From contig JAYNQW010000004.1 in the NCBI GenBank assembly GCA_038114465.1, forward strand, positions 89,528 to 153,527: 64,000 bases of DNA, written 5' to 3'. This stretch comes from Rhodospirillaceae bacterium (GTDB lineage: Bacteria; Pseudomonadota; Alphaproteobacteria; Rhodospirillales; CALINB01). A program made the translations under genes and the position numbers. This document shows positions 27,490-48,388 of this stretch, one piece after another. Positions within the stretch are counted from its first letter, which is position 1, and each line of letters opens with the position of its first letter. The notes beneath the pieces were generated by a model. The model had not been told where the DNA came from, searched no databases, and saw only the letters and a list, made by a program, of their open reading frames with translations.

Positions 27490-29022
27490 TTACTCTTTGA
27501 GTGTCGCGCCCGTAGCGGCGTCCTCTCTCTTCGACTGATAAGCCCGCCAGAAGCCATAAGCGGCCGTTGCAATCGCCATGGCCATAATCACCACCGCTAT
27601 GGGACGGGTCATGACAGCCATTAAATCGCCCTGATGAATTGTGAGCGCTTTATTGAAGTTGCCCTCGACAATCGGTCCCATAACGAAGGCCAGCACGATT
27701 GGCACCGTCGGGATATCGATCTTTTCAAAGTAGTACGCCATCGCGGACATAATCAGCACCATGACAACATGTGCCCAGTAATTCGAATAAGCATAGGTGC
27801 CGATCAAAATCATAATCATGACGAAGGGACCGAGGATACGCCGCGGCACTTTGGCAATCGGACCCCAGACACGCATGCCGACGAGACCGACAAACAGAAG
27901 CATAAAGTTACAAACAATTAATCCGATAAAGATGGCCAGAACCAGCGACGTGCTTTCTTTAAAGAGCAACGGTCCCGGCACGATGCCTTTTGTTACCAAA
28001 ACACCGATGAGAATAGCTGCCGTACCTGAACCGGGGATACCCAACGATAACGACGGCACCAACGTTCCGGCAACAACGGCATTGTTTGCCGATTCGGGGG
28101 CTGCAACACCTTCGACAATCCCCGTACCCATAAGATGACGGCGCTTTGACCAGCGTTTTTCTTCGTTATAGGCAATGAGTGAACCAACCGATGCCCCCGC
28201 ACCTGGGATGGCGCCAATGGCGGTACCGATCAGGCTGTTACGAATCCATGTCGGGATCAGAAGTTTCACTTCTTCACCGGTAATTCTGTTGTTTTCCTTT
28301 TCTGCCGTTAGATCGGCAACTTGGCCTTTTTCAATTGTTTTACGATGATCAATGAGGAGCCGGAAGGCTTCCGGACCCGCCAAGAGCCCAATGACGATAA
28401 CGACCAACGGAAGTCCGTCCATGAGCGGTCCAAGGTCAAAGGTAAACCGCATCCCGCCGAAGCCTGAGCTGCCAATAGTTGCTAAAAAGAGGCCGATACC
28501 GGCGGCCAAAAACCCTTTTGCCGGGTCCTTGCCGAAAAAAGAACCGATGATCGAGATCCCGAACACGCCCAAGGCAAACATTTCGCCGGGGCCGAATTTC
28601 AAGGCGATATTCGCCAGTGCAACACCGGAAACGATAAAAATGAGTGTACTGGATAAACCACCGATGACACCGGAAAACAACGACACTTTCAGCGCCTTTA
28701 ACGCTTTGCCCTGTTGGGTCATCGTGTAGCCGTCCAAGACGGTCACAGCCCCTGCGGGTGTACCTGGCGTTCGAATAAGAATTGCCGGGATAGAGCCACC
28801 GTATTCAGCGGCAGAATACACCGCGACACAAAACAAAATTGCGTCCGGCGCCGACATGACAAAGGTTATTGGGAATAATAAGGCCAACGATTGCGAACTG
28901 CCGAAACCCGGCAATGCGCCAAGAATGATACCTAGAATAACACCGCCGAATAAGGCGACTAATGATACCGGACCGAATACCAATCCTGCCGCCGGTCCAA
29001 TGTGAGAGAAAAAACCTTCCAT
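27490..29022 (-). CDS. tctA: Tripartite tricarboxylate transporter large permease
   Basis: 510-aa polytopic membrane protein downstream of the tctC and tctB homologs. Confidence 0.85.
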   Translation of the reverse strand: MEGFFSHIGPAAGLVFGPVSLVALFGGVILGIILGALPGFGSSQSLALLFPITFVMSAPDAILFCVAVYSAAEYGGSIPAILIRTPGTPAGAVTVLDGYTMTQQGKALKALKVSLFSGVIGGLSSTLIFIVSGVALANIALKFGPGEMFALGVFGISIIGSFFGKDPAKGFLAAGIGLFLATIGSSGFGGMRFTFDLGPLMDGLPLVVIVIGLLAGPEAFRLLIDHRKTIEKGQVADLTAEKENNRITGEEVKLLIPTWIRNSLIGTAIGAIPGAGASVGSLIAYNEEKRWSKRRHLMGTGIVEGVAAPESANNAVVAGTLVPSLSLGIPGSGTAAILIGVLVTKGIVPGPLLFKESTSLVLAIFIGLIVCNFMLLFVGLVGMRVWGPIAKVPRRILGPFVMIMILIGTYAYSNYWAHVVMVLIMSAMAYYFEKIDIPTVPIVLAFVMGPIVEGNFNKALTIHQGDLMAVMTRPIAVVIMAMAIATAAYGFWRAYQSKREDAATGATLKE

Positions 29023-29040: not shown

Positions 29041-29550
29041 TTAAAAAAATTCGATGTGATTTGTGAGAATCTTCACCGGAAATGCGACATTCAATAAAAT
29101 GACAAATGAGAAGTAGAAAAACAGCGAAACAACCAGCGACAACAAGCCGACCTTAATGATCCGTGTCTTGAGTTTATCAAACCACCGGGTGATCAATAAA
29201 ATAAACATGAAAAGAAATGTGCAGGCCTCAAATCCAAGCACGGGCAACAAAAATATAAAGGCCAGGACTAAAGCAATGATATACGTAAATTGAACAAGGT
29301 CGATTGTTACTGTTTCACCTTCACCGGAAGCCACAGAGCCGCCAAAGAATAATTCTTTACCCCGGCGAAAAATAATGGATGCGCAAAAAAACAGCGAAAA
29401 GCCCAAAACAATACGGGGGAAAAAAGCATCGCCCGGATAACCCGGCAACATTGAAGGCGGAAAAGTGCTTGTATAATAAAACAAATATCCAAGCCCAATG
29501 GTGATCAGTAACACTGATACAAAATCAGCCGTTCCTTTTTGAAGAGTCAT
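29041..29550 (-). CDS. tctB: Tripartite tricarboxylate transporter small membrane subunit
   Basis: 169-aa protein with 4 TM segments, between tctC and tctA. Confidence 0.7.
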   Translation of the reverse strand: MTLQKGTADFVSVLLITIGLGYLFYYTSTFPPSMLPGYPGDAFFPRIVLGFSLFFCASIIFRRGKELFFGGSVASGEGETVTIDLVQFTYIIALVLAFIFLLPVLGFEACTFLFMFILLITRWFDKLKTRIIKVGLLSLVVSLFFYFSFVILLNVAFPVKILTNHIEFF

Positions 29551-29719: not shown

Positions 29720-30709
29720 TTAGCTTCCCGCTTTCAGGATGCCCAACTTGATCATCAGTTTCCGGGTCGCTTTTTTACCGGCGCCGAACTCTTTATTGAG
29801 CTCCTTAGTATTGTCGTTATAGCCCGGAATCACGTGCGGCTGTTTGCTCAAATATTTTTTATAAGCTTCTGTTCCTCGAAGCTTGCTCAAAGAGCCCTTC
29901 AACGTTTTCATGGCCTCTTTCGGCGTACCTTTCCGGACCATGAAGCCTTGGAATTGGTGCGGGATCTTGTAGTTGATTCCAAGATCAGACGGCACTGGAA
30001 CGTCTTTCCAAAGCGGGTCATCCAGGCGCTTCTCATTGAGAAGCAGTAACGCCCGGGCTTTGCCGGCTTTAATATGAGAATTCCACTTGCCGGGCTGAGC
30101 AAAACCGATGATGAGGTGCTTACCAATAACGTCCTTCACGACGTCACCCGTACCTTTGTACGGCACAAACCGAACTTTGATGCCGGCAGTCTTGTGAATG
30201 AGTTCTTGGTGACGATGGTGGACAGAACCGATTTTGTTACTGCCCATAGCATATTTAAACGGCGCTTTTTTTGCCGCTTTAATCCAGTCCTTGTACGTTT
30301 TCCAAGGGCTGTCAGCATGCACGGCAATAGCATAGAGATGCTGTTCCATGACCGCGAGGATATCAAAGTCTTTTTCGCTGTACTTAAAATGCGGCAGGTT
30401 GAAATAACCCGTAAAGCTCGCACTGATGTGCAACAGTGTATGGCCGTCGTTCGGTTTATTCGCAACATAAACAACAGGCTCATGGTTGGAGCCACCGCTC
30501 TTGAACTGAACCTTAACTGGGTTTTTCAAATCTTTGCGAAGATGATCCGCAACCAAGTGACACCAAACCGCAGCACCGGAACCCGGCGATGTGGCGCAAA
30601 TGAAATCAATCGGTTTGCTTGGAAATTTCGCAGCCGCCGGACCAACGAGTCCCAACGACAAAATGCCAGCAAATGCAGACATAAGGGTAACTTTGCTTAG
30701 AGTACGCAT
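29720..30709 (-). CDS. tctC: Tripartite tricarboxylate transporter substrate-binding protein (Bug family)
   Basis: 329 aa from the ATG at 30709. Signal peptide MRTLSKVTLMSAFAGILSLGLVGPAAA, Bug-family length, followed by tctB and tctA. Confidence 0.8.
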   Translation of the reverse strand: MRTLSKVTLMSAFAGILSLGLVGPAAAKFPSKPIDFICATSPGSGAAVWCHLVADHLRKDLKNPVKVQFKSGGSNHEPVVYVANKPNDGHTLLHISASFTGYFNLPHFKYSEKDFDILAVMEQHLYAIAVHADSPWKTYKDWIKAAKKAPFKYAMGSNKIGSVHHRHQELIHKTAGIKVRFVPYKGTGDVVKDVIGKHLIIGFAQPGKWNSHIKAGKARALLLLNEKRLDDPLWKDVPVPSDLGINYKIPHQFQGFMVRKGTPKEAMKTLKGSLSKLRGTEAYKKYLSKQPHVIPGYNDNTKELNKEFGAGKKATRKLMIKLGILKAGS

Positions 30710-30856
30710 GTAAACCTCCCGTTTTCTCTTAAGCTCATTATTCAAATTTCGCCCCAGGGCTAAATCCCTGGAAAAACTTACCTTTGTTGTATCCGCCCCC
30801 TCCCCGGGTTGGCAACTCATATTTGCCCTCAATTTCCCGGGGAAAGCGCATTTTTC

Positions 30857-31504
30857 CTACTTTTTCGGGCCGAATCCCTTCTCGAAATGGGGCCCGCTCA
30901 TGGTGCCGTCGATGGCTTTACCGATGATTCCGTGGGATAAATCCTTCATGGCAATAAATATGACATCCTCTTTGCTGGTTGAAACCATCGTATGAGGCGC
31001 ATTTGCCGGGACGTATATCAACGTGCCAGCCGGAGCCAGCGATTTTTTCCCGTTAATCACACACCGGAGGGTGCCCTGAACCACGAAGTTGAACTGCTCG
31101 TTGGGGTGCGAGTGCATCCGCGAGCCAGTTCCACGGGGCTTGCGAATGTAGCCGATGAGCATCCGCTCACCCTCGACAACACCGCCGTGAGACGTGGAAT
31201 AACCTGTCCCCGCCGGAACTTTCTTAAGCTTGGCGAAGGGGAAATAATATTTACCGCGGCCGGCTTTAACTGCACCTTCGGTTTTCGTCTTACGGGACGA
31301 TTTTTTCTTCGCGGCTTTCCGCTTTGCCGGTTTTTTCTTAGCAGTCTTTTTTGCTGTTTTTCTTTTTGCCGGTTTACGGGCCGTTTTCTTCTTAGCCGGT
31401 TTTCTTTTTACGGAACGCTTTGCCGTTTTTTTAGCAACTTTTCTCTTCGACTTTTTCACCACTGTTTTTCTTTTTCTCGTCGTCTTTTTCGCTCGTTTTG
31501 CCAC
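30857..31504 (-). CDS. Cupin-domain protein with N-terminal histone-H1/AlgP-like Lys/Ala-rich tail
   Basis: 215 aa. GTG start 9 nt downstream of an AAGGAG SD. Residues 2-76 are K/R/A/T low complexity (AKKTAKRSVKRKPAKKKTARKPAKRKTAKKTAKKKPAKRKAAKKK). The C-terminal cupin has GTGSRMHSHPNEQFNFVVQG and GTLIYVPANAPH. Confidence 0.8.
   Translation of the reverse strand: MAKRAKKTTRKRKTVVKKSKRKVAKKTAKRSVKRKPAKKKTARKPAKRKTAKKTAKKKPAKRKAAKKKSSRKTKTEGAVKAGRGKYYFPFAKLKKVPAGTGYSTSHGGVVEGERMLIGYIRKPRGTGSRMHSHPNEQFNFVVQGTLRCVINGKKSLAPAGTLIYVPANAPHTMVSTSKEDVIFIAMKDLSHGIIGKAIDGTMSGPHFEKGFGPKK
31276..31501 (-). repeat. Lys/Ala-rich low-complexity coding repeat (degenerate AAG/AAA/GCx periodicity)
   Basis: Degenerate short repeats visible in the DNA (gccggtttt / ctttttgc units) encode the KKxAKK tail of the cupin gene. 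Confidence 0.7.
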
Positions 31505-31675
31505 GGGTATTTTCTCCTTTAGAGTGGTTTATTTCAAAAAAGGCTATCGGTTCATTAAGTGAACCGTCATTGCATTACACTTTACTCGAAACGGTTTCGA
31601 CACTCAAATTTTAAGATCACCTAAAATGGCGAACTTAAATTGACAGATTCATCCTTTCAGGGTTTGTATGAATTT

Positions 31676-33430: not shown

Positions 33431-35173
33431 TCAGTGAATTTCAGGTTCCGGTGTCGGCGCACCCGCTTCGAGATAATCAAAATCACACCCCTGATCCGCT
33501 TGGCCGATATGATCCAAGAACATCTTGGTGTAACCACGCTCATAAACAGGGGCTGGTTTTTTCCATTTCGCCCGGCGCGCTTCTAGTTCTTTATCGGATA
33601 TATCGAGGTGAATGCGGCGCTGATCAACATCGACCTCAATAAAATCGCCTGTCTCGACAAACGCCAGTGGTCCGCCGATGTGTGACTCCGGTGCAACATG
33701 CAGAATACAAGCACCGTAACTGGTACCGCTCATGCGCGAGTCCGAGATCCGCAGCATGTCGCGCACGCCTTGCTTCAGTAATTTCTTCGGAATTGGCATC
33801 ATGCCCCATTCCGGCATGCCCGGACCGCCTTGCGGACCGGCTTTTTGCAGGACCAAAACCGAGTCTTCCGTAACTTCAAGATCGTCGCGATCAATTTCAG
33901 CCGCCATGTGGTTATAGTCACGAAACACAAGCGCCGGGCCTCTGTGTTTCAGGTATTTTTGATCGGCGGCAGCGGGCTTCATCACACAACCATCCGGCGC
34001 CAGATTGCCGTAAAGCACCGCCGTCGCCCCTTCGGCATAAATCGGATCGCTTAAAGGGTGAATCACATCGGACCGGTGAACTTTTGCAGTCTTGATATCT
34101 TCGCCTAACGTTTGGCCGCTGACAGTTTTGCACGAAAGTTTCAATAGGCTTTTTATTTCACTTAACACGGCGGGTAGGCCGCCTGCCGCGTGGAACTCTT
34201 CCATGAGAAACTCACCCGACGGCTTGATATTCGCAATGACCGGTGTCGTGCGCGAAATTTCATCGAAACGCTTTAGGGACATCTGCAAGCCGGCACGCCG
34301 GGCCATCGCAATGATATGTATGATAGCGTTTGTCGAACCGCCAAGCGCCATGTGAACGGCAATACCGTTATCGAATGAATCCTGCGTCAAGATGTCGCTT
34401 GGCTTGAGGTCTTCCCAAACCATATCGACGATACGCCGGCCGGATTCCGTAGCCATGCGTTTATGACTTGAATCCGGCGCCGGGATAGAAGAAGCGCCCG
34501 TTAACGTCAGGCCGATTGTTTCCGTCACCGCCGTCATTGTCGATGCTGTCCCCATGACCTGACAATGGCCGTACGAGCGTGCAATACCGCTTTCGATATC
34601 CTCCCAATCTTTTTCCGTGATATTGCCGGCACGAAGTTCGGCCCAATATTTCCAGGTACTGGTCCCCATACCCAGGGCTTCACCACGCCATTGACCGCCG
34701 AGCATGGGGCCCGCTGGCACAAAGATGGCTGGCAAATTCATGCTTAACGCGCCCATCACAAGCCCAGGCGTTGTTTTATCGCATCCACCAAGCAAAACAG
34801 CGCCGTCAACCGGGTGCGAGCGCAATAATTCTTCCGTCTCCATCGCCAAAAAATTTCGGTAGAGCATCGTCGTTGGTTTAACGAAAGGCTCAGATAATGA
34901 AATCGCCGGCAGTTCGATTGGAAACCCGCCAGCCTGAAGAACGCCTTTTTTAACTTCTTCCGCCCGCTGGCGGAGGTGGGTATGACAAGGGTTGATGTCG
35001 CTCCAAGTATTGATAATCCCGATCACCGGTTTACCGATAAAATCGTCGCGATCATGGCCGATTTGCTTCAAACGCGCCCGGTGCGCAAAGGAACGCAGGT
35101 CGGTCGCGCCGAACCATCGATGGCTCCGTAAATCTTCCGGCTTCATTTTTAGTTTCTTTTTAGGCATTCTCAT
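33431..35173 (-). CDS. IlvD/Edd-family dehydratase (sugar-acid/dihydroxy-acid dehydratase)
   Basis: 580 aa. LRSHRWFG, GIINTWSDINPCHTHL and LLGGCDKTTPG Fe-S ligand regions. The start is uncertain (Met1, Met3 or Met10). Confidence 0.85.
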   Translation of the reverse strand: MRMPKKKLKMKPEDLRSHRWFGATDLRSFAHRARLKQIGHDRDDFIGKPVIGIINTWSDINPCHTHLRQRAEEVKKGVLQAGGFPIELPAISLSEPFVKPTTMLYRNFLAMETEELLRSHPVDGAVLLGGCDKTTPGLVMGALSMNLPAIFVPAGPMLGGQWRGEALGMGTSTWKYWAELRAGNITEKDWEDIESGIARSYGHCQVMGTASTMTAVTETIGLTLTGASSIPAPDSSHKRMATESGRRIVDMVWEDLKPSDILTQDSFDNGIAVHMALGGSTNAIIHIIAMARRAGLQMSLKRFDEISRTTPVIANIKPSGEFLMEEFHAAGGLPAVLSEIKSLLKLSCKTVSGQTLGEDIKTAKVHRSDVIHPLSDPIYAEGATAVLYGNLAPDGCVMKPAAADQKYLKHRGPALVFRDYNHMAAEIDRDDLEVTEDSVLVLQKAGPQGGPGMPEWGMMPIPKKLLKQGVRDMLRISDSRMSGTSYGACILHVAPESHIGGPLAFVETGDFIEVDVDQRRIHLDISDKELEARRAKWKKPAPVYERGYTKMFLDHIGQADQGCDFDYLEAGAPTPEPEIH

Positions 35174-36278: not shown

Positions 36279-37052
36279 ATGAAGCCGGTCCGTTCTGTCG
36301 AGCGCGCAATCGCTATTTTATTCCTGGTTGTTCAAAGCGACCGGCCGATGGGGCTTTCTGAAATTAGCCGGACCATCGGCCTCGACAAGGCAACGTCGCT
36401 GCGGCTTCTGTCCACATTGGCCTCGGCCAAACTTGTCCAACAGGACGCGATTACGCGACGGTATATGCCTGGAGCCAATATCTCGAGGTTATACAGTTCT
36501 TGGCGAAGCGATCTCCGGCATATCAGCCGGCCGCATTTGGAGCCGCTTTTACGCCAAGTTCAGGAATCTGTTTGTCTGGTTTGTCCGCGCGGCACCGAAC
36601 GGGTCACAATTGAAGCAATTGCCGCCTCCCATGAACTCTGCGTTGTCCCGGCCATTGGGAGCGCCGTGCCGATTTACGCCGGCGCATCGGGCCAAGTTCT
36701 TATGGCCTACTTGCCGGAGTCCGAGCGGGAACGCATTATCAAGGCGACAAACTTGCACCCGGTCGTTCCGGGATCGGGTTCGGATCGAAAATCATATCTT
36801 GCGAAACTTGAAAAAGTCCGTAACCAGGGCTTTGCTTACAGCATTGGCGATGTAACGCCGGGCGGCTCCGCTATATCAGCGCCGGTGTTTGACTCCGATG
36901 CAAACATTGTTGCCACTGTTGTGGTTCGAGGACCGCAAACACGGCTTATGGAAAAAGAGCTAATTGCAATGGCGCCCCATGTGATAAAGACGGCCAGCGA
37001 CATTAGTCAGGAATTAGGATATGGGCATTTGCAAAAAGCAGCGATGAGTTGA
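36279..37052 (+). CDS. IclR-family transcriptional regulator
   Basis: 257 aa. N-terminal wHTH (SVERAIAILFLVVQSDRPMGLSEISRTIGLDKATSLRLLSTL) plus a C-terminal IclR effector domain. Confidence 0.85.
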   Translation: MKPVRSVERAIAILFLVVQSDRPMGLSEISRTIGLDKATSLRLLSTLASAKLVQQDAITRRYMPGANISRLYSSWRSDLRHISRPHLEPLLRQVQESVCLVCPRGTERVTIEAIAASHELCVVPAIGSAVPIYAGASGQVLMAYLPESERERIIKATNLHPVVPGSGSDRKSYLAKLEKVRNQGFAYSIGDVTPGGSAISAPVFDSDANIVATVVVRGPQTRLMEKELIAMAPHVIKTASDISQELGYGHLQKAAMS

Positions 37053-38969: not shown

Positions 38970-39929
38970 TTAAAGAATGTCTTTGTTCACGACCAAACTG
39001 GGGTCGAGCTTGCCGTCGAATACGGCTAAGACATTCCGCGCACAAACTTCCGCCATACGCTGGCCACACTCGACGGTAAACGCACCGCAGTGCGGAGAAA
39101 TGACAATATTATCGAGCTTAAACAGAGGGTTATTCGCCTCCGGCGGCTCAGGATCAAACACATCCAACGCCGCCGCAGCCAATTTGCCTGACGACAGGGC
39201 TTCACATAAATCACTTTCGTTGACCATGCCGCCTCGCGAGACGTTCACAATAAACGCGCCATCCTTCATGGTTGAAATTTCTTTTGCCGTGATCAAGTTT
39301 TCCGTTTCCGGTGTCTTCGGTACGTGGATGGAAACATAATCCGCATCCGGCAAAGCCTTGTGAAAGTCTTCAACCGGCTCGTAACCAGCTTTCTTCACAT
39401 CTTCCGCCGACACAAACGGATCTGAAATAAGCACCGTCATACCGAATGCCGCACACCGCTGTGCAACCTCTCGACCAATACGTCCAAAACCGGCAACGAG
39501 AACTTTCTTATTTAAGAGTTCCGTTTGCGAAAACGAATCGCGGATTTTGAAATTTCCATCCCGGGTCGCATTGTCATAGGCGACGAGTTTTTTCGCCATC
39601 GCCAACATCATTGCAAGCGTATGCTCAGCAACAGCTGTTGCGTTCACGTTACCAACCAAAGCCAGGGGTATTTTTCGCGCCGTCAATGCATCAACATCGA
39701 CCGCTTCATATCCGACGCCATGACGCGCCACAATTTTAAGGTTCGGCGCGGCATCGACAACCTCTTGGTTGATTTTCGTCATGCGTACGATGATGGCATC
39801 CGTTTCCGGAAGATGGTCGAAAATTTCCGGCACGTGCTCCGCTAATTCCGTAAATTCAACATCTGGTGCATCACGCAAAATTTGCAGCCCGGCATTGTGA
39901 ATTTTGCCGAGCACAAGAACTTTTTTCAT
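38970..39929 (-). CDS. D-isomer-specific 2-hydroxyacid dehydrogenase (SerA/GhrB-like)
   Basis: 319 aa. NAD fold VLVAGFGRIGREVAQR, and VNVSRGGMVNE ... ISPHCG catalytic region. Confidence 0.85.
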   Translation of the reverse strand: MKKVLVLGKIHNAGLQILRDAPDVEFTELAEHVPEIFDHLPETDAIIVRMTKINQEVVDAAPNLKIVARHGVGYEAVDVDALTARKIPLALVGNVNATAVAEHTLAMMLAMAKKLVAYDNATRDGNFKIRDSFSQTELLNKKVLVAGFGRIGREVAQRCAAFGMTVLISDPFVSAEDVKKAGYEPVEDFHKALPDADYVSIHVPKTPETENLITAKEISTMKDGAFIVNVSRGGMVNESDLCEALSSGKLAAAALDVFDPEPPEANNPLFKLDNIVISPHCGAFTVECGQRMAEVCARNVLAVFDGKLDPSLVVNKDIL

Positions 39930-39963: not shown

Positions 39964-40422
39964 CTAGCTGTCTTCGCCGGCGATAAAAGCACCGCTTTTT
40001 TTACCGTCGACGGCATCGCCGGCAACGTAATAACCAACATCTTTAGCTGCAAAATACACCGCATCTTCTTCATCGGTTGTCACGACGTAATGCTCTTCAT
40101 TCGCCGGGATATGGATCAGCTGACCGGGACCCGCGATTCCTTCCTTATCGCCGACCTTGTATTTTACTTTTCCCTTCAATACGAGATTGAATTGCTCATT
40201 AGCATGGGTATGCAAACGAGATCCCGTTCCTTTCGGTTTATTAACAAGAACGACTTGAAGCTTCTTGCCGCGAACGGCTGCACCGATTGAAGAAGAATAA
40301 TGAGGACCAATCATAAACTGATCCATGTCGCCCATATTGAACAGGCAATTATCGGCACTGGCCCGAGTTACCAGCTTGTCGGTTTCTTCGTGAATGTTTT
40401 CATATTTTTCTTCGTCACTCAT
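39964..40422 (-). CDS. Cupin_2 (KdgF-like) protein, tandem copy 3 (most divergent)
   Basis: 152 aa. GTGSRLHTHANEQFNLVLKG and GQLIHIPANEEH. Confidence 0.8.
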   Translation of the reverse strand: MSDEEKYENIHEETDKLVTRASADNCLFNMGDMDQFMIGPHYSSSIGAAVRGKKLQVVLVNKPKGTGSRLHTHANEQFNLVLKGKVKYKVGDKEGIAGPGQLIHIPANEEHYVVTTDEEDAVYFAAKDVGYYVAGDAVDGKKSGAFIAGEDS

Positions 40423-40437
40423 TGTTTGCCTCCCAAT

Positions 40438-40881
40438 TTAATCCGATTTAACACCGGGTGCGACATACGCACCGGTGTTCTTGCCGTCAACGGGATCGCC
40501 ATACATTAAATGCGACGTATCCTTCACGGCGTAATATTCAACATCGTTATCTTCCGCCGCGACCGTGTAATGAGGCGTATCGGCCGGAATATAAATTAAG
40601 GTACCAGGCGTCGCGACAGATTCCACATCACCGACGCGAACCTTCAGTTTTCCTTTTAATACGTAATTAAACTGCTCATTCGGATGGGTATGCAGTCTCG
40701 AACCGGTTCCCGGTTTTTTACGCACAACTGCAACTTGCACTTTGTTGCCTTCGACGATGCCGCCGCGGGCGGATGAGTAGTGTTCTCCGATCCCGAACTC
40801 TTCAAGATTGAAGAGATCGAAGAAACAGTTGCCATTCCCGGCTTTGTGAGAATGTTGATTAATTTTTTTATCTTCAGCCAT
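40438..40881 (-). CDS. Cupin_2 (KdgF-like) protein, tandem copy 2
   Basis: 147 aa. GTGSRLHTHPNEQFNYVLKG and GTLIYIPADTPH. About three-quarters of residues are identical to copy 1 by eye. Confidence 0.8.
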   Translation of the reverse strand: MAEDKKINQHSHKAGNGNCFFDLFNLEEFGIGEHYSSARGGIVEGNKVQVAVVRKKPGTGSRLHTHPNEQFNYVLKGKLKVRVGDVESVATPGTLIYIPADTPHYTVAAEDNDVEYYAVKDTSHLMYGDPVDGKNTGAYVAPGVKSD

Positions 40882-40923
40882 TGATTACTTACCTCAATCA
40901 TTAAAATGGTCGTTGACTTAGCA

Positions 40924-41361
40924 CTAACCGTCTTTGGGCTCGATATAAGCACCCGTGTTCTTGCCGTCGACCGCTTCGCCATGCATCAAATAAGACGTAT
41001 CTTTAATTGCGTAGTATTCAACATCGCCGTCTTGTGTCGCGACCGTGTAATGAGGAATATTCGCCGGGATATATACCAGCGTCCCCGCCCGGGCTAACCC
41101 TTCGACGTCACCGATCTTTACCTTGAGCGTTCCCTTGAGAACATAATTGAATTGTTCATTCGCATGCGTATGAAGCCGCGAACCTGTTCCCGGTTTTTTC
41201 CGAACGATCGCGACTTGGACCTTATCGCCTTCGACAATCCCGCCACGGCCCGACGAATAATTCTCGCCGATCCCGAATTCTTTAAGATTAAATAAATCGA
41301 AAAAACAATTGCCGTCGCCGGCCTTATAGGAATTTTGGTTGATTTTTTCTTTATCCGCCAT
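40924..41361 (-). CDS. Cupin_2 (KdgF-like) protein, tandem copy 1
   Basis: 145 aa. GTGSRLHTHANEQFNYVLKG and GTLVYIPANIPH. Confidence 0.8.
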   Translation of the reverse strand: MADKEKINQNSYKAGDGNCFFDLFNLKEFGIGENYSSGRGGIVEGDKVQVAIVRKKPGTGSRLHTHANEQFNYVLKGTLKVKIGDVEGLARAGTLVYIPANIPHYTVATQDGDVEYYAIKDTSYLMHGEAVDGKNTGAYIEPKDG

Positions 41362-41465
41362 TGGCCTCCCTTTTAATTGTTCTTTTTTTATAACAATAAA
41401 TTATTTTTTCCGATATCGCTACTTTCACGCTGCTACAGGCAAAAATAAAACCGGGTTTGCTTTTG

Positions 41466-42230
41466 TCACGCTTTATATTTTTTAGCCAAGGCCGCTGTTT
41501 CCCGGGAGAGTATGGCAAGGTCCGCACCAACACCGATATAAGCATACCCTTTTTCGAGACATGCCCGAATAAGGTCCTCTGAAGGCCATAATGTGCCTGC
41601 GGGCTTATTCACGGCCTGGCATTTGGCAAACCCCTCATCCAGTAGCGCTAATACATCCGGATGGGTCATTTGGCCGATCATGCCCATCTCGGCGGATAAA
41701 TCAGCGGGACCAAAAAAGAATCCGTCAACACCGTCGACGGCAGCAATTTCTTCAATATTGGCCAATCCTTTCTTCGACTCAATCTGCATTAACCGGCAGA
41801 TGGCTTCATCGGCCTCATGAACATAGTTTGGGTTCTTTCCAAACCGGTTGCCCCGCTGCATTAATGAGACGCCGCGGATCCCTTCCGGCGGATACCGGGT
41901 TGCTGCAACACATTCACGCGCATCATCGGCCGTTTCAACCATCGGAAAAACAAGCGACTGTGCGCCAGCATCCAGGAGCCTTTTCACAATCACGGGCTCC
42001 CGCCATGGCGGGCGCACTAAGGCTGAGCAGTCATTTTGCGCTAAGGCCTGAAGCTGACCGAGAACGGAAGCAATATCGTTGGGCGAATGTTCCATATCCA
42101 CACAGACCCAATCGAAGCCTGCATCGGAAAGAACATCGGCGACCCAATTACTGCAGAGCGTGCTCCACAGGCCGATTTGCTGCTCGCCCTTAATCAGTCG
42201 TTCTTTAAAACGGTTGGTAAACTTCGCCAT
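41466..42230 (-). CDS. HpcH/HpaI-family 2-keto-3-deoxy-acid aldolase
   Basis: 254 aa. GLWSTLCSNWVADVLSDAGFDWVCVDMEHSPND and RYPPEGIRGV are typical of HpaI/GarL/RhmA aldolases. Confidence 0.85.
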   Translation of the reverse strand: MAKFTNRFKERLIKGEQQIGLWSTLCSNWVADVLSDAGFDWVCVDMEHSPNDIASVLGQLQALAQNDCSALVRPPWREPVIVKRLLDAGAQSLVFPMVETADDARECVAATRYPPEGIRGVSLMQRGNRFGKNPNYVHEADEAICRLMQIESKKGLANIEEIAAVDGVDGFFFGPADLSAEMGMIGQMTHPDVLALLDEGFAKCQAVNKPAGTLWPSEDLIRACLEKGYAYIGVGADLAILSRETAALAKKYKA

Positions 42231-42253
42231 TTTTTAACTTTAGCCTAAAACAC

Positions 42254-42278
42254 CACAGCCCGGCAAAGCCGGGCTGTG
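42254..42278 (-). terminator. Intercistronic 11-bp GC-rich hairpin (attenuator/partial terminator or mRNA-stabilising element)
   Basis: CACAGCCCGGC-AAA-GCCGGGCTGTG between the amidohydrolase stop and the aldolase start. On the minus strand it is followed by GGTGTTTT. Confidence 0.4.
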
Positions 42279-42302
42279 AATGAAACGATAAAGTCAGAAG
42301 AC

Positions 42303-43625
42303 CTATTTATCCGCGATCTTCCAATCGAGATAATCTTTCTGAATGACCCGGACATCCTTGCCCGGCCGGCGGTCAACCATCAGTTGACCTTCTTTAAAGA
42401 CCATTTGAAGCTTTTTGCGGTCTTGCAGAATTTTAATGTTTTTCAGCGGATCGCCATCCACAACGACGATATCGGCAAGCTTTCCTTTTTCGAGGGTGCC
42501 GATTTCATCTTCCATATGCAGCGCTTCGGCGGCGTTTTTCGTTGCCGTCATGATCGCGTCCATCGGTTTCATGCCAAGATCGGTATAAATTTCAAGCTCA
42601 TAAGCATTAGTACCGAAGCCCGGTTCGTAACCCATGTCCGTACCCATGGCAATTTTGACGCCGCTTTCGTACATCACTTGGAAGGTGTTGAAGCAATCCG
42701 GTTGAATCCGTTTCATCTTCACCAAGATAAATTCTGCCGTACCGATTTCCCGGCGGATATCGATGGCATGGTCCGTGCGGTGTGCCAAGGTCGGCGTCAC
42801 GGGGACTTGTGCATCGACAATGCGGGCAATCGAGTCGTCATCATGAAACACCATATGCTCAATCGTATCGGCGCCGGCTTTCAAAGCCATCCGATGGGCA
42901 TCCGGTGTAAAGCAGTGAATGGAGGCAAAATGCTCAACGGCATGCGCTTCATCGACCACGGCGTCGAGCTCTTCTTGCGTATGGTTACGAACGGTCGGCT
43001 CTTCTTTATCGGTGCCGCCGCCACCCGAAGCACAGGTTTTGATCCAGTCACAGCCGGTGAGCAGATTTTTCCGCGCCAAACCGCGTAAGGCATCGGCACC
43101 GTCTGCCGTCGTTCCCGGCGGGCGAATCGCCGCACGCGGCAGGATGAGATCCAAGTGCGAGCCCGTGCCGACGGCAAAGGCACCAATCACGAGACGGGGA
43201 CCAGCCATAACGCCATTATTAATAGCATCGCGAACCGCGCACATTTCCTCCGTCACGAGGCCCCACGGGGTGATGAAACCGAGGTCACGCAACGTCGTAA
43301 AGCCCATTTCCAAGCAGAGTTGAGCATGAAACAGTGCATAAAGTTGTTGCAGCTGCGGTGTAATTTCCCATTGCGCAACGCGGTAATTATTAAAAGTTAA
43401 ATTATTAAACATGCAAAGATGGATATGAAGATCCATCATGCCCGGCATCAATGTCGCTTTCGGCACATTAATAACCTCAGCACCTTTCGGCACCTTGACT
43501 TTGCTGGCGGGACCAACAGCTTGAATTTTTTTGCCTTTAATTACGATGACAGGGTTCTTAACGACTTCGCCTCCGTTGCCGTCAATTAATCGCCCACCTT
43601 TAATAACTGTTACATTAGCCGCCAT
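42303..43625 (-). CDS. Amidohydrolase-superfamily metal-dependent hydrolase (COG1228-like)
   Basis: 440 aa. N-terminal beta-sandwich IKGGRLIDGNG and the H-x-H metal motif PGMMDLHIHL. Confidence 0.8.
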   Translation of the reverse strand: MAANVTVIKGGRLIDGNGGEVVKNPVIVIKGKKIQAVGPASKVKVPKGAEVINVPKATLMPGMMDLHIHLCMFNNLTFNNYRVAQWEITPQLQQLYALFHAQLCLEMGFTTLRDLGFITPWGLVTEEMCAVRDAINNGVMAGPRLVIGAFAVGTGSHLDLILPRAAIRPPGTTADGADALRGLARKNLLTGCDWIKTCASGGGGTDKEEPTVRNHTQEELDAVVDEAHAVEHFASIHCFTPDAHRMALKAGADTIEHMVFHDDDSIARIVDAQVPVTPTLAHRTDHAIDIRREIGTAEFILVKMKRIQPDCFNTFQVMYESGVKIAMGTDMGYEPGFGTNAYELEIYTDLGMKPMDAIMTATKNAAEALHMEDEIGTLEKGKLADIVVVDGDPLKNIKILQDRKKLQMVFKEGQLMVDRRPGKDVRVIQKDYLDWKIADK

Positions 43626-43953: not shown

Positions 43954-45075
43954 ATGCAAACCCGAATTCCCTGCGTCCACATGCGGGGCGGTACATCAAA
44001 AGGCCCGTTTTTTCATCTCTCAGACTTACCGGCCGACGAAGCAACCCGTGACGCAGTCCTGCTCTCCGCCATGGGCTCACCGGATATTTTGCAAACCAAT
44101 GGGATTGGCGCGGCAACGCCCCTAACAAGTAAAGTTGCCATCATAAGCAAGTCAAAGCGTGATGATGCGGATTTGGATTATTTGTTTGCTCAGGTTGCGC
44201 TCGACAAACCTGTTGTCGATACAAACCCGAACTGTGGCAACATGCTCTCCGCCGTCGGCCCCTTCGGACTGGAAGAGGGCTTAATCAAAGCTGGTGATCC
44301 GGAAACCATCGTGAAGATATACAATGTCAACACGGATACGCTCATCGAGGCTGTCATCCAAACGCCCGGCGGCAATGTGACTTACGATGGCGATGCTTCT
44401 ATTGACGGTGTTCCCGGTACCGCCGCACCGGTCATTTTAAACTTTTTAAACGCAGCCGGATCAAAATGTTCTTCAATGCTGCCAACGGGCAAACCCAAAG
44501 ACATCATTGACGGCATCGAAGTATCTTGTGTCGATGTCGCCATGCCGATGGTTTTCGTCAAAGCCGAAGACATGGGCAAAACCGGGCACGAAAGCAAAGC
44601 GGAACTCGATGCGGATAAAGAATTTTACAAAAAACTAGAAGATATTCGGCGAAAGGCTTCAAAACTCATGGGCCTCGGAGATGCTTCAGACAAAGTCATT
44701 CCAAAATTCGGCATCGTTGCCGCCCCCAAGAACGGTAGCATAACCGCACGTTACTTTGTTCCCTTTACTTGCCATGCCGCGTTCGCCGTCACGGGAAGTT
44801 GTTGCGTCGCTTCTGCTGCCATCACGCCGGGAACGGTTGCCAATGATGTCGCCAAAATCGGCAACGCCGATAAGCAAATCGTGACTCTAGAACATCCAAG
44901 CGGATCAATTGACGTCAATGTTGAATTTGGCATGAAAGACGGTTTTCCCGATGTCAATCGCGTCGGCATTCTCAGAACGTGCCGCCGGTTATTCGAGGGA
45001 CATGTTCTCATTCCTGAATCAGTTTGGCGCGGGCATGAGTCTGATGCACCCAAACATCAGGCCGCGGCAGAATAG
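43954..45075 (+). CDS. PrpF-family isomerase (2-methylaconitate isomerase / 4-oxalomesaconate tautomerase-like)
   Basis: 373 aa. IPCVHMRGGTSKGPFF, TSKVAIISKS and NCGNMLSAVGPF. Confidence 0.8.
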   Translation: MQTRIPCVHMRGGTSKGPFFHLSDLPADEATRDAVLLSAMGSPDILQTNGIGAATPLTSKVAIISKSKRDDADLDYLFAQVALDKPVVDTNPNCGNMLSAVGPFGLEEGLIKAGDPETIVKIYNVNTDTLIEAVIQTPGGNVTYDGDASIDGVPGTAAPVILNFLNAAGSKCSSMLPTGKPKDIIDGIEVSCVDVAMPMVFVKAEDMGKTGHESKAELDADKEFYKKLEDIRRKASKLMGLGDASDKVIPKFGIVAAPKNGSITARYFVPFTCHAAFAVTGSCCVASAAITPGTVANDVAKIGNADKQIVTLEHPSGSIDVNVEFGMKDGFPDVNRVGILRTCRRLFEGHVLIPESVWRGHESDAPKHQAAAE

Positions 45076-46918: not shown

Positions 46919-48388
46919 ATGAAACCGATGAACCTGCTTTTCATCATGTCGGACCAGCACAGCAACAAAATTTTAGGGTGCCACGGCCATCCGATTATCA
47001 AAACGCCTCATATGGACCGGCTTGCCGAACGAGGAACACGGTTTACCGATGCCTATTCCCAATCACCGGTCTGTGTACCTGCAAGAGCTTCCATCGCGAC
47101 GGGCTTGTATGTTCACGAAAACAAAAATTGGTGTAACGCCCATTCTTATACCGGCGAAATCAAGGGGTGGGGACACCGGCTTCAAGAGGGCGGCCATCAT
47201 GTGCTTTCGATTGGCAAGTTGCATTATCGCAACGAGACCGATCCGACAGGGTTTGATGAACAAATCATCCCCATGCATGTTGTCGAAGGGGTCGGCGATC
47301 TGTTAGGATCCGTTCGTGATCAAATTCCCTTACCCGTACGCCATAAAGGCAAAACGCTGAGCGAGCGTATTGGCCCCGGTGAATCGACATATACGAAATA
47401 CGATAGCGATATTACAGAAAAAACCTGCGGTTGGCTGAGAACGGAGGCGCCTAAACATCAAGATAAACCATGGTGCCTTTTTTCTTCCCTTGTTTGCCCC
47501 CACCCGCCCTTCATCGCACCACCGGAATTTTACGCGCTCTATAATCCGGAAGAAATGCCGTTCGACAAAGGTGTTGGTGATGAAGATTTCAAACGCCACC
47601 CCTGGGTCGAGGAGCAACGCAATTGCCAATTCTTCGATCAGCATTTCAGGAATGAAACGCGCAAAATCGCCATTGCCTCTTATTTCGGCACGACATCGTT
47701 TTTCGACGATAATCTTGGAAAAATCATGCGCGCCCTGGAAGAAACGGGACTCGATCAAAGCACCCGGGTCGTTTACACGAGCGACCATGGTGAGAACCTC
47801 GGCACCCGCGGGCTATGGGGCAAATCCAACTTATACGAAGAACCCGCCGCCATACCGATGATCATTGCCGGACCGGATATCCCCGAAGGCCATGTCTGCA
47901 CCACCCCGGTTTCTCATGTCGATTGTTACCAGACAATCCTTCACGGGGTCGGTTTGCCCCTAAACGATAAAGAAAAATCGATGCCGGGCCGGTCGATGTT
48001 TGAAATTGCTTCTAATCACAATGACCCCGAACGCATTGCTTTCTCCGAATATCACGCCATGGCAGCGGCAACCGGCGCGTTCATGCTGCGCAAAGGCCGC
48101 TATAAACTAATTTACTATGTTGATTACAAGCCTGAATTATTTGATTTGGAAGCTGACCCGGAAGAAACCATCAATCTTGTAAGTGATCCGGCGCACAAAG
48201 ATACGCTGAGTGATATCGAGCAAGAATTACGCAAGATTATCAACCCTGAGAAAACTGACCGGGAAGCCAAAGCTAGCCAAGCGGCCATCATTGAAAAACA
48301 TGGCGGACGCGAAGCCATTATTCAACAAGGGGGCTTTGGAAATACCCCGGCACCCGGGGAAAAACCAGTATTTGCGGCTGGTCCGTAG
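46919..48388 (+). CDS. Cys-type sulfatase (formylglycine-dependent), no signal peptide
   Basis: 489 aa. LLFIMSDQHS metal site and SPVCVPARASIATG (C-x-P-x-R). The N-terminus has no hydrophobic leader. Confidence 0.85.
   Translation: MKPMNLLFIMSDQHSNKILGCHGHPIIKTPHMDRLAERGTRFTDAYSQSPVCVPARASIATGLYVHENKNWCNAHSYTGEIKGWGHRLQEGGHHVLSIGKLHYRNETDPTGFDEQIIPMHVVEGVGDLLGSVRDQIPLPVRHKGKTLSERIGPGESTYTKYDSDITEKTCGWLRTEAPKHQDKPWCLFSSLVCPHPPFIAPPEFYALYNPEEMPFDKGVGDEDFKRHPWVEEQRNCQFFDQHFRNETRKIAIASYFGTTSFFDDNLGKIMRALEETGLDQSTRVVYTSDHGENLGTRGLWGKSNLYEEPAAIPMIIAGPDIPEGHVCTTPVSHVDCYQTILHGVGLPLNDKEKSMPGRSMFEIASNHNDPERIAFSEYHAMAAATGAFMLRKGRYKLIYYVDYKPELFDLEADPEETINLVSDPAHKDTLSDIEQELRKIINPEKTDREAKASQAAIIEKHGGREAIIQQGGFGNTPAPGEKPVFAAGP

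What the first reader, a model, noticed from the sequence alone, without database searches (positions are those of the whole stretch)
30857..31504. Histone-H1/AlgP-like lysine-rich tail fused to a cupin, heading a tctCBA transporter operon
Seen: a GTG start with a well-spaced AAGGAG SD opens about 75 residues of KKxAKK-type repeats (about half Lys/Arg, the rest Ala/Thr/Pro/Ser). These are fused to a complete cupin (GTGSRMHSHPNEQFNFVVQG ... GTLIYVPANAPH). There is no alternative ATG before the cupin core. Established: such tails (AlgP, BpH1, Hc1, PhaF/PhaM-type) bind DNA or polyanions non-specifically. Inference: the protein may be a nucleoid- or polyanion-tethered cupin, or a small-molecule-sensing regulator built from a cupin and a basic tail. 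It sits first in line with tctC-tctB-tctA on the same strand and belongs to the same cupin subfamily as five other genes in this window.
Basis: partly seen in the sequence, partly recalled or inferred. Interest (0 to 1): 0.6.

Follow-up and report, generated by a model that had tools for sequence, protein, structure and literature searches.

The report
Cupin protein with long lysine-rich tail
A small metal-binding barrel protein (a cupin) really does begin with a translated string of about 72 mostly positively charged residues; relatives in more than 80 species keep some such charged tail at one end or the other, which probably sticks the protein to RNA, ribosomes or other negatively charged polymers, though nobody has tested this.

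Summary
ORF 30857..31504 encodes 215 aa from a GTG start with an AAGGAG SD 9 nt upstream. Residues 1-72 are 57% Lys/Arg and predicted disordered, and they are fused to a complete Cupin_2 barrel with an intact His/His/Glu/His site. The tail is translated: nine orthologous loci keep the GTG and SD, tails of 31-72 codons are all in frame, and no usable internal start exists.

The tail is the extreme case of a family trait. About 1500 homologs, mostly from uncultured Burkholderiales and Rhodospirillales, share a roughly 75-80% identical and itself cationic core (pI about 10). In 77 of 82 the N- and/or C-terminal tails carry a net charge of at least +4. Lys versus Arg tracks genomic GC, and acidic residues are nearly excluded.

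The most likely role is a non-specific electrostatic tether of an enzyme-like cupin to cytoplasmic polyanions, with ribosomes/RNA more likely than DNA or polyP. It is not an AlgP/PhaF/H1 homolog: it has no KPAA repeats and no detectable homology. The regulator reading has no support.

The cupin-tctCBA order is conserved only in this Rhodospirillales sub-clade. Elsewhere an Arg/Lys-carboxypeptidase-like amidohydrolase sits directly upstream. I rate it a new variant of a known kind, of moderate interest.

The parts
30857..31504 (-). Complete CDS of the tailed cupin (215 aa plus stop). It is identical to database protein P0001, named by NCBI 'MAG: cupin domain-containing protein [Rhodospirillaceae bacterium]'.
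31502..31504 (-). GTG start codon, conserved as GTG in all 9 orthologous loci of the Rhodospirillales clade.
31514..31519 (-). Shine-Dalgarno AAGGAG, 9 nt upstream of the GTG. A GGAG-type SD at equivalent spacing is present in all 9 orthologs.
31289..31504 (-). Polycationic tail, residues 1-72: K 43%, R 14%, A 17%, T 10%, P 4%, with never more than 3 residues between basic ones. It is predicted disordered and contains degenerate in-frame direct repeats spaced 27, 42, 54 and 96 nt apart.
30860..31288 (-). Conserved cupin core, residues 73-215, beginning TKTEGAVKAGRGKYYF. It is 75-80% identical in Burkholderiales homologs and cationic in its own right. For the stretch from residue 72 (144 aa), pI is 10.0 and net charge +13.
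30950..31138 (-). Pfam Cupin_2 match (residues 123-185). The putative metal ligands are H131, H133, E136 (motif GTGSRMHSHPNEQFNFVVQG) and H171 (GTLIYVPANAPH). H133, E136 and H171 are invariant and H131 at least 90% conserved across 40 family members.
31546..31584 (-). Conserved promoter-proximal block TAAAGTGTAATGCAATGACGGTTCACTTAATGAACCGAT, including the palindrome GGTTCA-N5-TGAACC at 31549-31565. It is conserved in all 9 orthologous loci and is a candidate -10 element plus operator of the cupin-tctCBA unit.
29720..30712 (-). tctC (TTT-family periplasmic receptor). It starts at an ATG preceded by GGGAGG, 144 nt after the cupin stop, with no terminator-like site between them on this strand.
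29041..29550 (-). tctB
27490..29022 (-). tctA
42303..43625 (-). Amidohydro_1 gene, 64% identical to the gene that lies directly upstream of the tailed cupin in 72 of 86 homologous loci. Here it is displaced about 11 kb and sits next to the acidic cupin paralogs. Its closest solved relatives are Arg/Lys carboxypeptidases and prolidases of the amidohydrolase superfamily.

Best explanation
The gene encodes a cytoplasmic, metal-binding monocupin that is probably a small-molecule enzyme. Its N-terminus has expanded into a 72-residue intrinsically disordered polycation, giving the whole protein a net charge of +53 and pI 11.3.

Shown:
- The tail is translated from the conserved GTG.
- It belongs to an orthogroup in which cationic disordered termini, at the N-end, the C-end or both, are nearly universal.
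- The folded core is itself cationic.

Inferred:
- The tail, together with the basic core, acts as a non-sequence-specific electrostatic tether. It would hold the cupin on abundant cytoplasmic polyanions: most likely ribosomes/RNA, otherwise DNA or polyphosphate.
- Affinity would be set by the number of charges. Tail length has been tuned by in-frame duplication and deletion of short Lys-codon-rich repeats.
- In this Rhodospirillales sub-clade the gene has moved from its usual position behind an amidohydrolase to the head of a tctCBA transporter unit. It is probably co-transcribed from a promoter with a conserved palindromic operator.
For: Translation of the tail:
- Nine orthologous loci all have a GTG start plus a GGAG-type SD. 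Tails of 31, 37, 42, 52, 52, 62, 66, 68 and 72 codons are all in frame. In seven of the nine loci both other frames contain stops; in L098 and L016 frame 2, and in L009 frame 3, has none.
- Indels between the window and L001 are 9, 15 and 6 nt.
- There is no usable internal start. The next ATG is codon 115, and the paralogs align from residue 78.

The tail as a family trait:
- 1521 homologs share a core about 75-80% identical, with total lengths of 150-215 aa.
- In 77 of 82 species-level loci the summed tail charge is at least +4, with a median of +10.
- N- and C-tail lengths are anticorrelated (Spearman -0.35, p=0.001).
- Tails contain 36% K+R but only 2.5% D+E.
- The K/(K+R) ratio falls from 0.82 to 0.49 as locus GC rises (Spearman -0.38, p=5e-4). 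Charge is therefore conserved rather than residue identity.
- Polybasic tails recur in remote relatives at 45-54% identity (P0129, P0152, P0157, P0169), while other branches are neutral or acidic.

Charge of the core:
- Core pI is 10.0 here and the family median is 9.8. The three tail-less window paralogs have pI 5.3-6.1.

Structure:
- In the AF2 model the tail has pLDDT about 50 with no secondary structure, while the barrel reaches 86-96.

Metal site:
- H133, E136 and H171 are invariant, and H131 is at least 90% conserved.

Published precedent:
- Lys-rich disordered regions bind DNA, RNA and polyP in AlgP and PhaF (PMC9239181, PMC12818456).
- Lys/Arg-rich LCRs are enriched in nucleic-acid-binding proteins of prokaryotes (PMC6821194).
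- A +25 GFP in E. coli diffuses up to 100-fold more slowly because it binds ribosomes (PMC5726854).

Origin by duplication:
- The tail contains degenerate direct repeats spaced 27, 42, 54 and 96 nt apart.
Against: - No binding, localisation or expression data exist for any family member. The mechanism rests on composition and analogy.
- The tail shows no homology to any characterised polyanion-binding domain.
- The gene contexts are those of small-molecule catabolism (amidohydrolase, AcnX, TctC, dehydratases). Nothing there explains why such an enzyme should be tethered.
- Frame conservation proves only that translation starts upstream. It does not prove that the tail is useful.
- Length hypervariability is also what neutral slippage would give.
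- The statistics on tail charge are not corrected for phylogenetic non-independence.
Confidence: 0.5

Rival explanations
1. Non-adaptive or only weakly functional low-complexity expansion. The tail would be a slippage-prone run of AAA/AAG-rich codons at the 5' end that is tolerated, or at most tunes expression or solubility, and has no binding partner.
For: - Tail length varies from 31 to 72 codons among orthologs whose cores are 86-99% identical.
- There is no positional sequence conservation.
- The tail contains degenerate in-frame repeats.
- Tail GC is 0.33-0.50 against 0.50-0.60 in the core.
- The tail alone has no homolog.
Against: - Positive charge is retained in 77 of 82 species over a GC range of 0.44-0.70, with Lys exchanged for Arg as GC rises.
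- Acidic residues are almost excluded, at 2.5%.
- Basic tails sit at either terminus, with inverse length correlation.
- Basic tails recur in remote relatives.
- The core is cationic too.
- No A-run exceeds 7 nt, so simple homopolymer slippage is not the driver.
Confidence: 0.2
2. Membrane tether. The polybasic tail would bind anionic phospholipids and hold the cupin at the inner face of the membrane next to the TctBA permease, forming a transport-metabolism couple.
For: - The cupin heads tctC-tctB-tctA here and in every locus of its sub-clade that extends far enough to show it.
- No terminator lies between them.
- It is established that polybasic stretches bind acidic lipids electrostatically (own knowledge).
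- A TctC-like protein in the window also ends in a poly-Lys run.
Against: - The tail has no hydrophobic or amphipathic element (no helix predicted).
- Only 11 of 86 homologous loci contain tctA at all. Basic tails are found throughout the family, so they predate the tctCBA linkage.
- Ribosomes and RNA are the more abundant polyanions and captured +25 GFP in vivo (PMC5726854).
Confidence: 0.12
3. Transcription regulator. The cupin would sense a small molecule and the basic tail would bind DNA to control the tctCBA unit.
For: - The architecture is superficially parallel to HTH-cupin regulators.
- It is the first gene of the unit.
- A conserved palindrome lies upstream.
Against: - There is no HTH or other DNA-reading domain.
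- The tail is hypervariable in length, in sequence and in which terminus carries it, so it cannot read a conserved palindrome.
- An IclR-family regulator encoded nearby (36279..37052) is a more ordinary candidate for that operator.
- In most genomes the gene is the second gene of an amidohydrolase operon (72 of 86 loci).
- The metal-ligand set typical of catalytic cupins is conserved.
Confidence: 0.06
4. Processed or regulated tail. The K/R-rich termini would be substrates of, or decoys for, the Arg/Lys-carboxypeptidase-like amidohydrolase that is the family's conserved neighbour, so tail length and therefore tethering would be adjusted after translation.
For: - Amidohydro_1 lies directly upstream on the same strand in 72 of 86 loci.
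- Its closest solved relatives are L-arginine carboxypeptidase Cc2672 (3mtw), a Zn-dependent arginine carboxypeptidase (3be7) and prolidases, at E about 1e-50.
- The last residue of the cupin is K or R in 100 of 146 unique C-tails (68%), against 38% K/R in the tails overall.
Against: - Similarity to the carboxypeptidases is at family level only. The NCBIfam hit scores 280 bits, below its cutoff of 500.
- Enzymes of this group are, to my knowledge, characterised on dipeptides and N-acyl amino acids, not on proteins.
- In this window the long tail is N-terminal, where a carboxypeptidase cannot reach it, and the amidohydrolase gene is 11 kb away.
- The C-terminal K/R enrichment is not phylogenetically corrected.
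Confidence: 0.05

Closest known systems
AlgP (AlgR3) and PhaF of Pseudomonas: folded or helical domain plus a disordered KPAA-repeat Lys-rich tail
   Same: - A long Lys/Ala-rich, predicted disordered, strongly cationic extension is appended to an unrelated folded domain. Net charges are AlgP +55 and PhaF +35 (PMC9239181), against +53 here.
- Repeat number is variable in both.
- Their tails bind DNA, RNA or polyP granules (PMC9239181, PMC12818456), which is the function inferred here.
   Different: - The tail here is N-terminal rather than C-terminal.
- It has no KPAA repeats (0), 4% Pro, and 14% Arg.
- There is no detectable sequence homology.
- The attached domain is a metal-binding cupin in an enzyme-operon context, not a phasin or helical domain.
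Lys-rich terminal extensions of bacterial nucleic-acid proteins (HU/Hlp, Ku, topoisomerase I, ribosomal proteins), as surveyed in PMC6821194
   Same: These are terminal, low-complexity, Lys/Arg/Ala-rich stretches of variable length that confer non-specific electrostatic binding.
   Different: In those cases the host domain already acts on nucleic acid. Here the host is a small cupin with no known link to nucleic acid.
Small single-domain metal cupins such as TM1459, KdgF and Sthe2323 (PDB 5wse, 5fq0, 4e2g)
   Same: These are the best structural matches to the core (Foldseek E about 1e-7, TM-score normalised to the target 0.65-0.78). They share the His/His/Glu/His metal-site layout.
   Different: - Sequence identity is only 14-25%.
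- The core here is about 30 residues longer, with the extra conserved segments TKTxGAxKAGxGKY and AGTGYSTSHGGVVEG.
- As far as the hit list shows, those proteins are 105-126 aa with no room for a tail.
HTH-cupin transcription regulators (XRE- or AraC-type with a cupin sensor domain)
   Same: Two-part layout: a putative DNA-contacting N-terminal part plus a C-terminal cupin.
   Different: There is no helix-turn-helix. The N-terminal part is disordered, hypervariable, and in many homologs absent or moved to the C-terminus.
Supercharged +25 GFP in the E. coli cytoplasm (PMC5726854)
   Same: It serves as a physical model. A soluble protein with a large net positive charge is captured by ribosomes/mRNA and diffuses up to 100-fold more slowly.
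   Different: It is an engineered surface-charged folded protein, not a natural disordered tail. The effect is weaker at high ionic strength.

Membership tests
Cupin superfamily / Pfam Cupin_2 (PF07883) | Profile match above the curated gathering score | tested here: met
   53.9 bits against a cutoff of 27.2, E 1.5e-14, residues 123-185.
Cupin superfamily / Pfam Cupin_2 (PF07883) | Two-motif metal site: G(X)5HXH(X)nE(X)6G and G(X)5PXG(X)2H | tested here: met
   GTGSRMHSHPNEQFNFVVQG and GTLIYVPANAPH are present, with N in place of the second-motif G. H133, E136 and H171 are invariant and H131 at least 90% conserved across 40 homologs. Metal binding itself was not tested.
Cupin superfamily / Pfam Cupin_2 (PF07883) | Double-stranded beta-helix fold | tested here: met
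   The AF2 model has 8 strands with pLDDT 86-96. The top Foldseek PDB hits are all small cupins at probability 1.00.
AlgP/PhaF KPAA-repeat (histone-H1-like) tail | Tandem KPAA (or KPVA/KTAAA) repeats | tested here: not met
   There are 0 KPAA and only 3 KPAK. Pro is 4% of the tail.
AlgP/PhaF KPAA-repeat (histone-H1-like) tail | Detectable sequence relationship to those tails | tested here: not met
   The tail-only search gave no hit at E<=0.001 among 1682 candidates. No non-cupin Pfam family matched at E<=0.01.
AlgP/PhaF KPAA-repeat (histone-H1-like) tail | Lys/Ala-rich, intrinsically disordered, high net positive charge | tested here: met
   K 43%, A 17%, R 14%. pLDDT is about 50 with no secondary structure. 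Whole-protein net charge is +53.
AlgP/PhaF KPAA-repeat (histone-H1-like) tail | Binds DNA, RNA or polyphosphate | not testable with these tools
   Needs EMSA, heparin binding or localisation experiments.
Eukaryotic linker histone H1 / chlamydial Hc1 | Winged-helix globular domain (H1) or Hc1 family profile; S/TPKK motifs | tested here: not met
   No such Pfam hit. There are 0 SPKK and 0 TPKK motifs.
HTH-cupin transcription regulators | A helix-turn-helix DNA-binding domain fused to the cupin | tested here: not met
   Only cupin-type Pfam families match. The N-terminal 72 residues are predicted unstructured.
tctCBA (tripartite tricarboxylate transporter) transcription unit | Same strand, short gaps, no intervening terminator, conserved gene order | tested here: met
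   The gap is 144 nt with no minus-strand terminator-like site. The order cupin-tctC-tctB-tctA is seen in L001, L096, L009 and L016, and as far as the contigs extend in L097 and L098.
tctCBA (tripartite tricarboxylate transporter) transcription unit | Co-transcription with tctCBA | not testable with these tools
   Needs RNA-seq or RT-PCR across the 144-nt gap.
Basic-tailed 'TKTxGA' cupin orthogroup (defined in this work) | Core at least ~70% identical, with the TKTxGAxKAGxGKY and AGTGYSTSHGGVVEG segments; cationic core; net-positive disordered terminus or termini | tested here: met
   Core identity is 100% to P0001 and 63-94% to the 39 aligned members. Core pI is 10.0. The tails carry net charge +40 (N-tail) and +1 (C-tail).

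The most novel reading that the evidence does not exclude
The whole protein, not just its tail, is built for a macromolecular polyanion. On this reading the orthogroup is a ribosome-, RNA- or nucleoid-resident cupin metalloenzyme, acting on or near nucleic acid or ribosomal components, or sequestered there as a regulated reservoir. Dwell time would be set by an evolvable polycationic terminus. That terminus could be trimmed by the Arg/Lys-carboxypeptidase-like amidohydrolase encoded next to it in most genomes.

Observations that do not exclude it:
- The core has pI about 10, whereas the paralogs are at pI 5-6.
- The core is about 80% identical between Alpha- and Betaproteobacteria, while the adjacent amidohydrolase is only 64% identical.
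- The amidohydrolase is directly upstream in 72 of 86 loci.
- C-termini end in K or R in 68% of unique tails.
Probability: 0.1. Interest if true: 0.7.

Novelty: new variant of a known kind. Interest (0 to 1): 0.42.

Why it matters
Polycationic disordered tails in bacteria are known mostly on proteins whose job already involves nucleic acid or storage granules: HU, Ku, AlgP, PhaF and ribosomal proteins. Here such a tail, up to +40 charges, sits on a small enzyme-like metal cupin whose neighbours are small-molecule catabolism and transport genes.

The trait is kept across more than 80 species while its length, its sequence and even the terminus that carries it vary. That makes the family a natural graded series (5 to 72 residues) for asking how net charge controls where a soluble enzyme sits in bacterial cytoplasm. 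It would be a natural counterpart to the engineered supercharged-GFP experiments.

If the tether is real, it would be an example of spatial control of metabolism by simple electrostatics. It would also be a caution that 'cupin domain-containing protein' annotations hide an uncharacterised, very strongly conserved orthogroup found mostly in uncultured Burkholderiales and Rhodospirillales.

If it is neutral slippage, it still documents how far a 5' coding low-complexity tract can grow without being purged.

Tried and rejected
Searches that led nowhere:
- An exact 20-mer from the core, scanned against metagenome contigs to harvest orthologous DNA, returned six chance matches in unrelated genes. 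That scan was wasted, and orthologous DNA was obtained by protein-identity look-ups instead.
- The tail-only protein search found no hit at E<=0.001.
- Rfam at E<=1 over 30500-31900 found no RNA family, so there is no known riboswitch or leader in the A-rich region.
- Tandem Repeats Finder found only a weak 14-nt, 2-copy array. The tail is not a recent perfect tandem array; degenerate repeats appeared only with the repeat finder.
- The PDB sequence search gave only weak cupin matches, the best being BacB and 5zbe at E about 1e-4. All NCBIfam hits were far below cutoff. No specific enzyme name can be assigned.
- The literature search for a bacterial cupin with a basic disordered tail returned nothing relevant.

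Ideas considered and rejected:
- Alternative starts. GTG at codons 15 and 16 have no SD, and ATG at codon 115 would delete about 40 conserved core residues.
- Signal peptide or Tat signal. There is no hydrophobic stretch anywhere in residues 1-72.
- The antisense 176-aa ORF at 30992..31522 (+). Its F/L/S/C-rich low-complexity translation mirrors the Lys codons, and the homology is on the minus strand.
- Gene fusion with a separate histone-like gene. Homologs with short tails show the basic segment contiguous with the core, and tail lengths form a graded series.
- Poly(A)-track ribosome sliding. The longest A run is 7 nt.
Full report
**1. What is in the sequence**

The ORF lies on the minus strand at 30857..31504 and encodes 215 aa.
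- It starts with GTG at 31502-31504. AAGGAG lies at 31514-31519, nine bases upstream.
- Residues 1-76 contain 32 Lys, 10 Arg, 12 Ala, 9 Thr and one acidic residue, which makes 55% K+R.
- In residues 1-72 there are never more than three residues between basic ones, and the pattern [KR][KR]x[AT][KR][KR] occurs ten times.
- Pfam Cupin_2 matches residues 123-185 at 53.9 bits against a cutoff of 27.2.
- Both cupin motifs are present, and H131, H133, E136 and H171 are placed as the usual metal ligands.
- The only in-frame starts before the cupin are GTG at codons 15 and 16, without an SD. The next ATG is codon 115.
- tctC, tctB and tctA follow on the same strand. The gap is 144 nt and no terminator-like site lies on that strand.

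**2. Is the tail translated?**

The protein is identical to a database entry that NCBI names 'MAG: cupin domain-containing protein [Rhodospirillaceae bacterium]' (P0001). I collected the DNA of eight further orthologous loci: L001, L095-L099, L009 and L016.
- All nine loci start with GTG preceded by a GGAG-type SD at the same spacing.
- Their tails are 31, 37, 42, 52, 52, 62, 66, 68 and 72 codons long and are all in frame. In seven of the nine loci both other frames contain stops; in L098 and L016 frame 2, and in L009 frame 3, has none.
- Between the window and L001 the tail differs by indels of 9, 15 and 6 nt.
- The window's paralogous cupins align from residue 78 onward, so starting at Met115 would remove conserved core.

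There is no downstream start, and the orthologs keep the basic region.

**3. The tail is the extreme of a family trait**

A search with the core alone found 1521 proteins. The listed top 120 hits are 76-100% identical to the core over 97-100% of its length, with total lengths of 150-215 aa. An alignment of 40 members has 72 invariant columns in the core, while both termini are unalignable but basic.

In the species-representative genomes the family sits in 168 places. These are almost all uncultured Burkholderiales/Betaproteobacteria and some Rhodospirillales MAGs, with one isolate, a Polynucleobacter. ORFs extracted from those loci show the following.
- In 77 of 82, the summed net charge of the N- and C-terminal tails is at least +4, with a median of +10 and a maximum of +39.
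- Members with 4-5-residue N-tails typically carry 9-19-residue C-tails such as ...RKRAAKK or ...RVARR.
- N- and C-tail lengths are inversely correlated (Spearman -0.35, p=0.001).
- Tails hold 36% K+R and only 2.5% D+E.
- The Lys share of basic residues falls from 0.82 at GC below 0.55 to 0.49 at GC above 0.62 (Spearman -0.38, p=5e-4). What is conserved is charge, not residue identity or position.

These statistics are not corrected for shared ancestry.

At 50% clustering the orthogroup collapses to one representative. Remote relatives at 45-54% identity again include polybasic versions. P0129 has a 49-residue KKTAKK-type N-tail, P0169 a roughly 75-residue basic N-tail, P0157 a K-rich C-tail, and P0152 has both. 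Other branches are neutral or acidic.

**4. The core is cationic too**

- The window protein has net charge +53 and pI 11.3.
- Its core alone has pI 10.0 and net charge +13. The family cores have a median pI of 9.8.
- The three tandem paralogs in the window (39964..41361, 38-46% identical) have acidic N-termini, no tails, and pI 5.3-6.1.

**5. Structure**

- AF2, run with the family alignment, gives a confident eight-stranded barrel (pLDDT 86-96). Residues 1-70 are unstructured, with pLDDT about 50 and no secondary structure.
- Foldseek against the PDB returns generic small monocupins (Sthe2323, TM1459, KdgF) at 14-25% identity.
- The PDB sequence search and NCBIfam give only weak, sub-threshold matches.

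No specific catalytic function can be assigned.

**6. Gene neighbourhood**

In the window's sub-clade the layout is conserved: IclR, an L-arabinonate-dehydratase-type IlvD/Edd gene and an Sdh/Frd-type flavoprotein lie divergently, followed by cupin-tctC-tctB-tctA. This is seen in L001, L096, L009 and L016, and as far as the contigs extend in L097, L098 and L095.

Upstream of the GTG all nine loci share the block TAAAGTrTAATGCAAT-N3/4-GGTTCAC-N4/5-GTGAACC (window 31546-31584). It looks like a -10 element plus a palindromic operator.

Outside this sub-clade the context differs.
- An Amidohydro_1 gene lies directly upstream on the same strand in 72 of 86 loci.
- Of the 88 loci plus the window, a CobW/COG0523 gene is present in 62, TctC in about 61-64, AcnX in 19, a 281-aa bicupin in 17, and tctA in only 12.
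- The window has the amidohydrolase ortholog (64% identical) at 42303..43625. It sits next to an HpcH-type aldolase and the acidic cupin paralogs. The bicupin ortholog is at 52842..53660.

So the tctCBA linkage is a local rearrangement, and the basic tails predate it. The amidohydrolase's closest solved relatives are the Arg/Lys carboxypeptidases Cc2672 and 3be7 and the Sgx9260 prolidases, at E about 1e-50.

**7. How the tail grew**

- The tail DNA holds degenerate direct repeats (69-94% identical) spaced 27, 42, 54 and 96 nt apart, all multiples of three.
- There is no recent perfect tandem array, and no A-run exceeds 7 nt.
- Together with the graded 31-72-codon series, this fits repeated in-frame duplication and deletion of short units followed by divergence.

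**8. Most likely mechanism**

Shown:
- The tail is translated, disordered and polycationic.
- It sits on a conserved, cationic, metal-site-bearing cupin.
- Charge is conserved family-wide.

Inferred: the termini tether the protein non-specifically to cytoplasmic polyanions.

Basis for the inference:
- Lys-rich disordered regions of AlgP and PhaF bind DNA, RNA and polyP granules, and mutating the lysines abolishes RNA binding (PMC9239181, PMC12818456).
- Lys/Arg-rich low-complexity regions are enriched in nucleic-acid-binding proteins of prokaryotes (PMC6821194).
- A +25 GFP in E. coli is captured mainly by ribosomes/mRNA, not DNA, and diffuses up to 100-fold more slowly (PMC5726854).

A +53 protein should behave at least as strongly, so ribosomes/RNA are a more likely address than the nucleoid. 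I put this at about 0.5.

Rivals:
- Tolerated slippage product, 0.2.
- Membrane tether beside TctBA, 0.12.
- Transcription regulator, 0.06.
- Tail processed by the neighbouring carboxypeptidase-like amidohydrolase, 0.05. The last residue is K or R in 68% of unique C-tails against 38% K/R in the tails overall. That is only a lead.

**9. Comparison with what is known**

The protein works like the AlgP/PhaF/H1-type tails but is not a member of that group. It has no KPAA repeats, 4% Pro, no S/TPKK motifs, no Pfam hit and no detectable homology. It is a member of Cupin_2. It is not an HTH-cupin regulator.

I found no paper describing a bacterial cupin with a polycationic tail. This is absence from the searched library, not proof of absence.

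**10. Verdict**

This is a real feature and a new variant of a known kind: a polycationic disordered tail on a new host domain, in an uncharacterised and very strongly conserved orthogroup. Interest is moderate at 0.42. The pattern is clean and offers a natural charge series for testing electrostatic localisation of enzymes. The tail chemistry itself is familiar, and no function has been demonstrated.

Noticed in passing
window 48513..49553 (+), C-terminus at about 49500-49550: A TctC-family ORF with a signal-peptide-like N-terminus ends in ...GKKIKKMGKKKKKKKKSS, including eight consecutive Lys. This is a second polybasic terminus in the same window, on what looks like a periplasmic protein.
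   Followed up: partly
window 31546..31584 (-), palindrome at 31549..31565: All 9 orthologous loci share the block TAAAGTrTAATGCAAT followed by GGTTCAC-N4/5-GTGAACC, in the divergent intergenic region between the cupin and the flavoprotein gene. It is a candidate -10 element plus operator. The IclR-family gene at 36279..37052 is a plausible binder, but this was not tested.
   Followed up: partly
window 39964..43625 (-): The minus strand here carries an Amidohydro_1 gene (42303..43625), an HpcH/HpaI-type aldolase (41466..42230) and three tandem acidic monocupin paralogs (40924..41361, 40438..40881, 39964..40422). A 2-hydroxyacid dehydrogenase follows at 38970..39929. In most other genomes the amidohydrolase is followed by the basic-tailed cupin instead.
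   Followed up: partly
window 42303..43625 (-), and the C-termini of family members (P0001-P0120, L003-L088): The family's conserved amidohydrolase neighbour is most similar to Arg/Lys carboxypeptidases (3mtw, 3be7). Family C-termini end in K or R in 100 of 146 unique tails, against 38% K/R in the tails overall. A link between the two is possible but has not been shown.
   Followed up: partly
window 51998..53660 (-): Two adjacent bicupin genes of 268 and 272 aa lie here. The second is 49% identical to a 281-aa bicupin that co-occurs with the basic-tailed cupin in 17 of the Burkholderiales-type loci. Both have weak, sub-threshold similarity to (S)-ureidoglycine aminohydrolase.
   Followed up: no
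window 30992..31522 (+): A 176-aa ATG-initiated ORF lies antisense to the cupin gene. Its F/L/S/C-rich translation over the tail region mirrors the Lys codons. It is a shadow ORF, not a gene.
   Followed up: yes
L001 6150..7826 and 8768..9758: In this otherwise syntenic MAG contig the flavoprotein gene is called as two pieces (98 + 423 aa) and tctC as two pieces (110 + 209 aa). In L002, L096 and the window each is a single gene. Frameshifts or assembly errors in that contig are the likely cause.
   Followed up: no
window 33431..35173 (-) and 43954..45075 (+): Two neighbours pass NCBIfam equivalog cutoffs: L-arabinonate dehydratase (985 bits against 882) and 4-oxalomesaconate tautomerase (496 against 440). 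With the sulfatase at 46919..48388, two TPP enzymes and several TctC genes, the window looks like an organic-acid and aromatic catabolic island.
   Followed up: no
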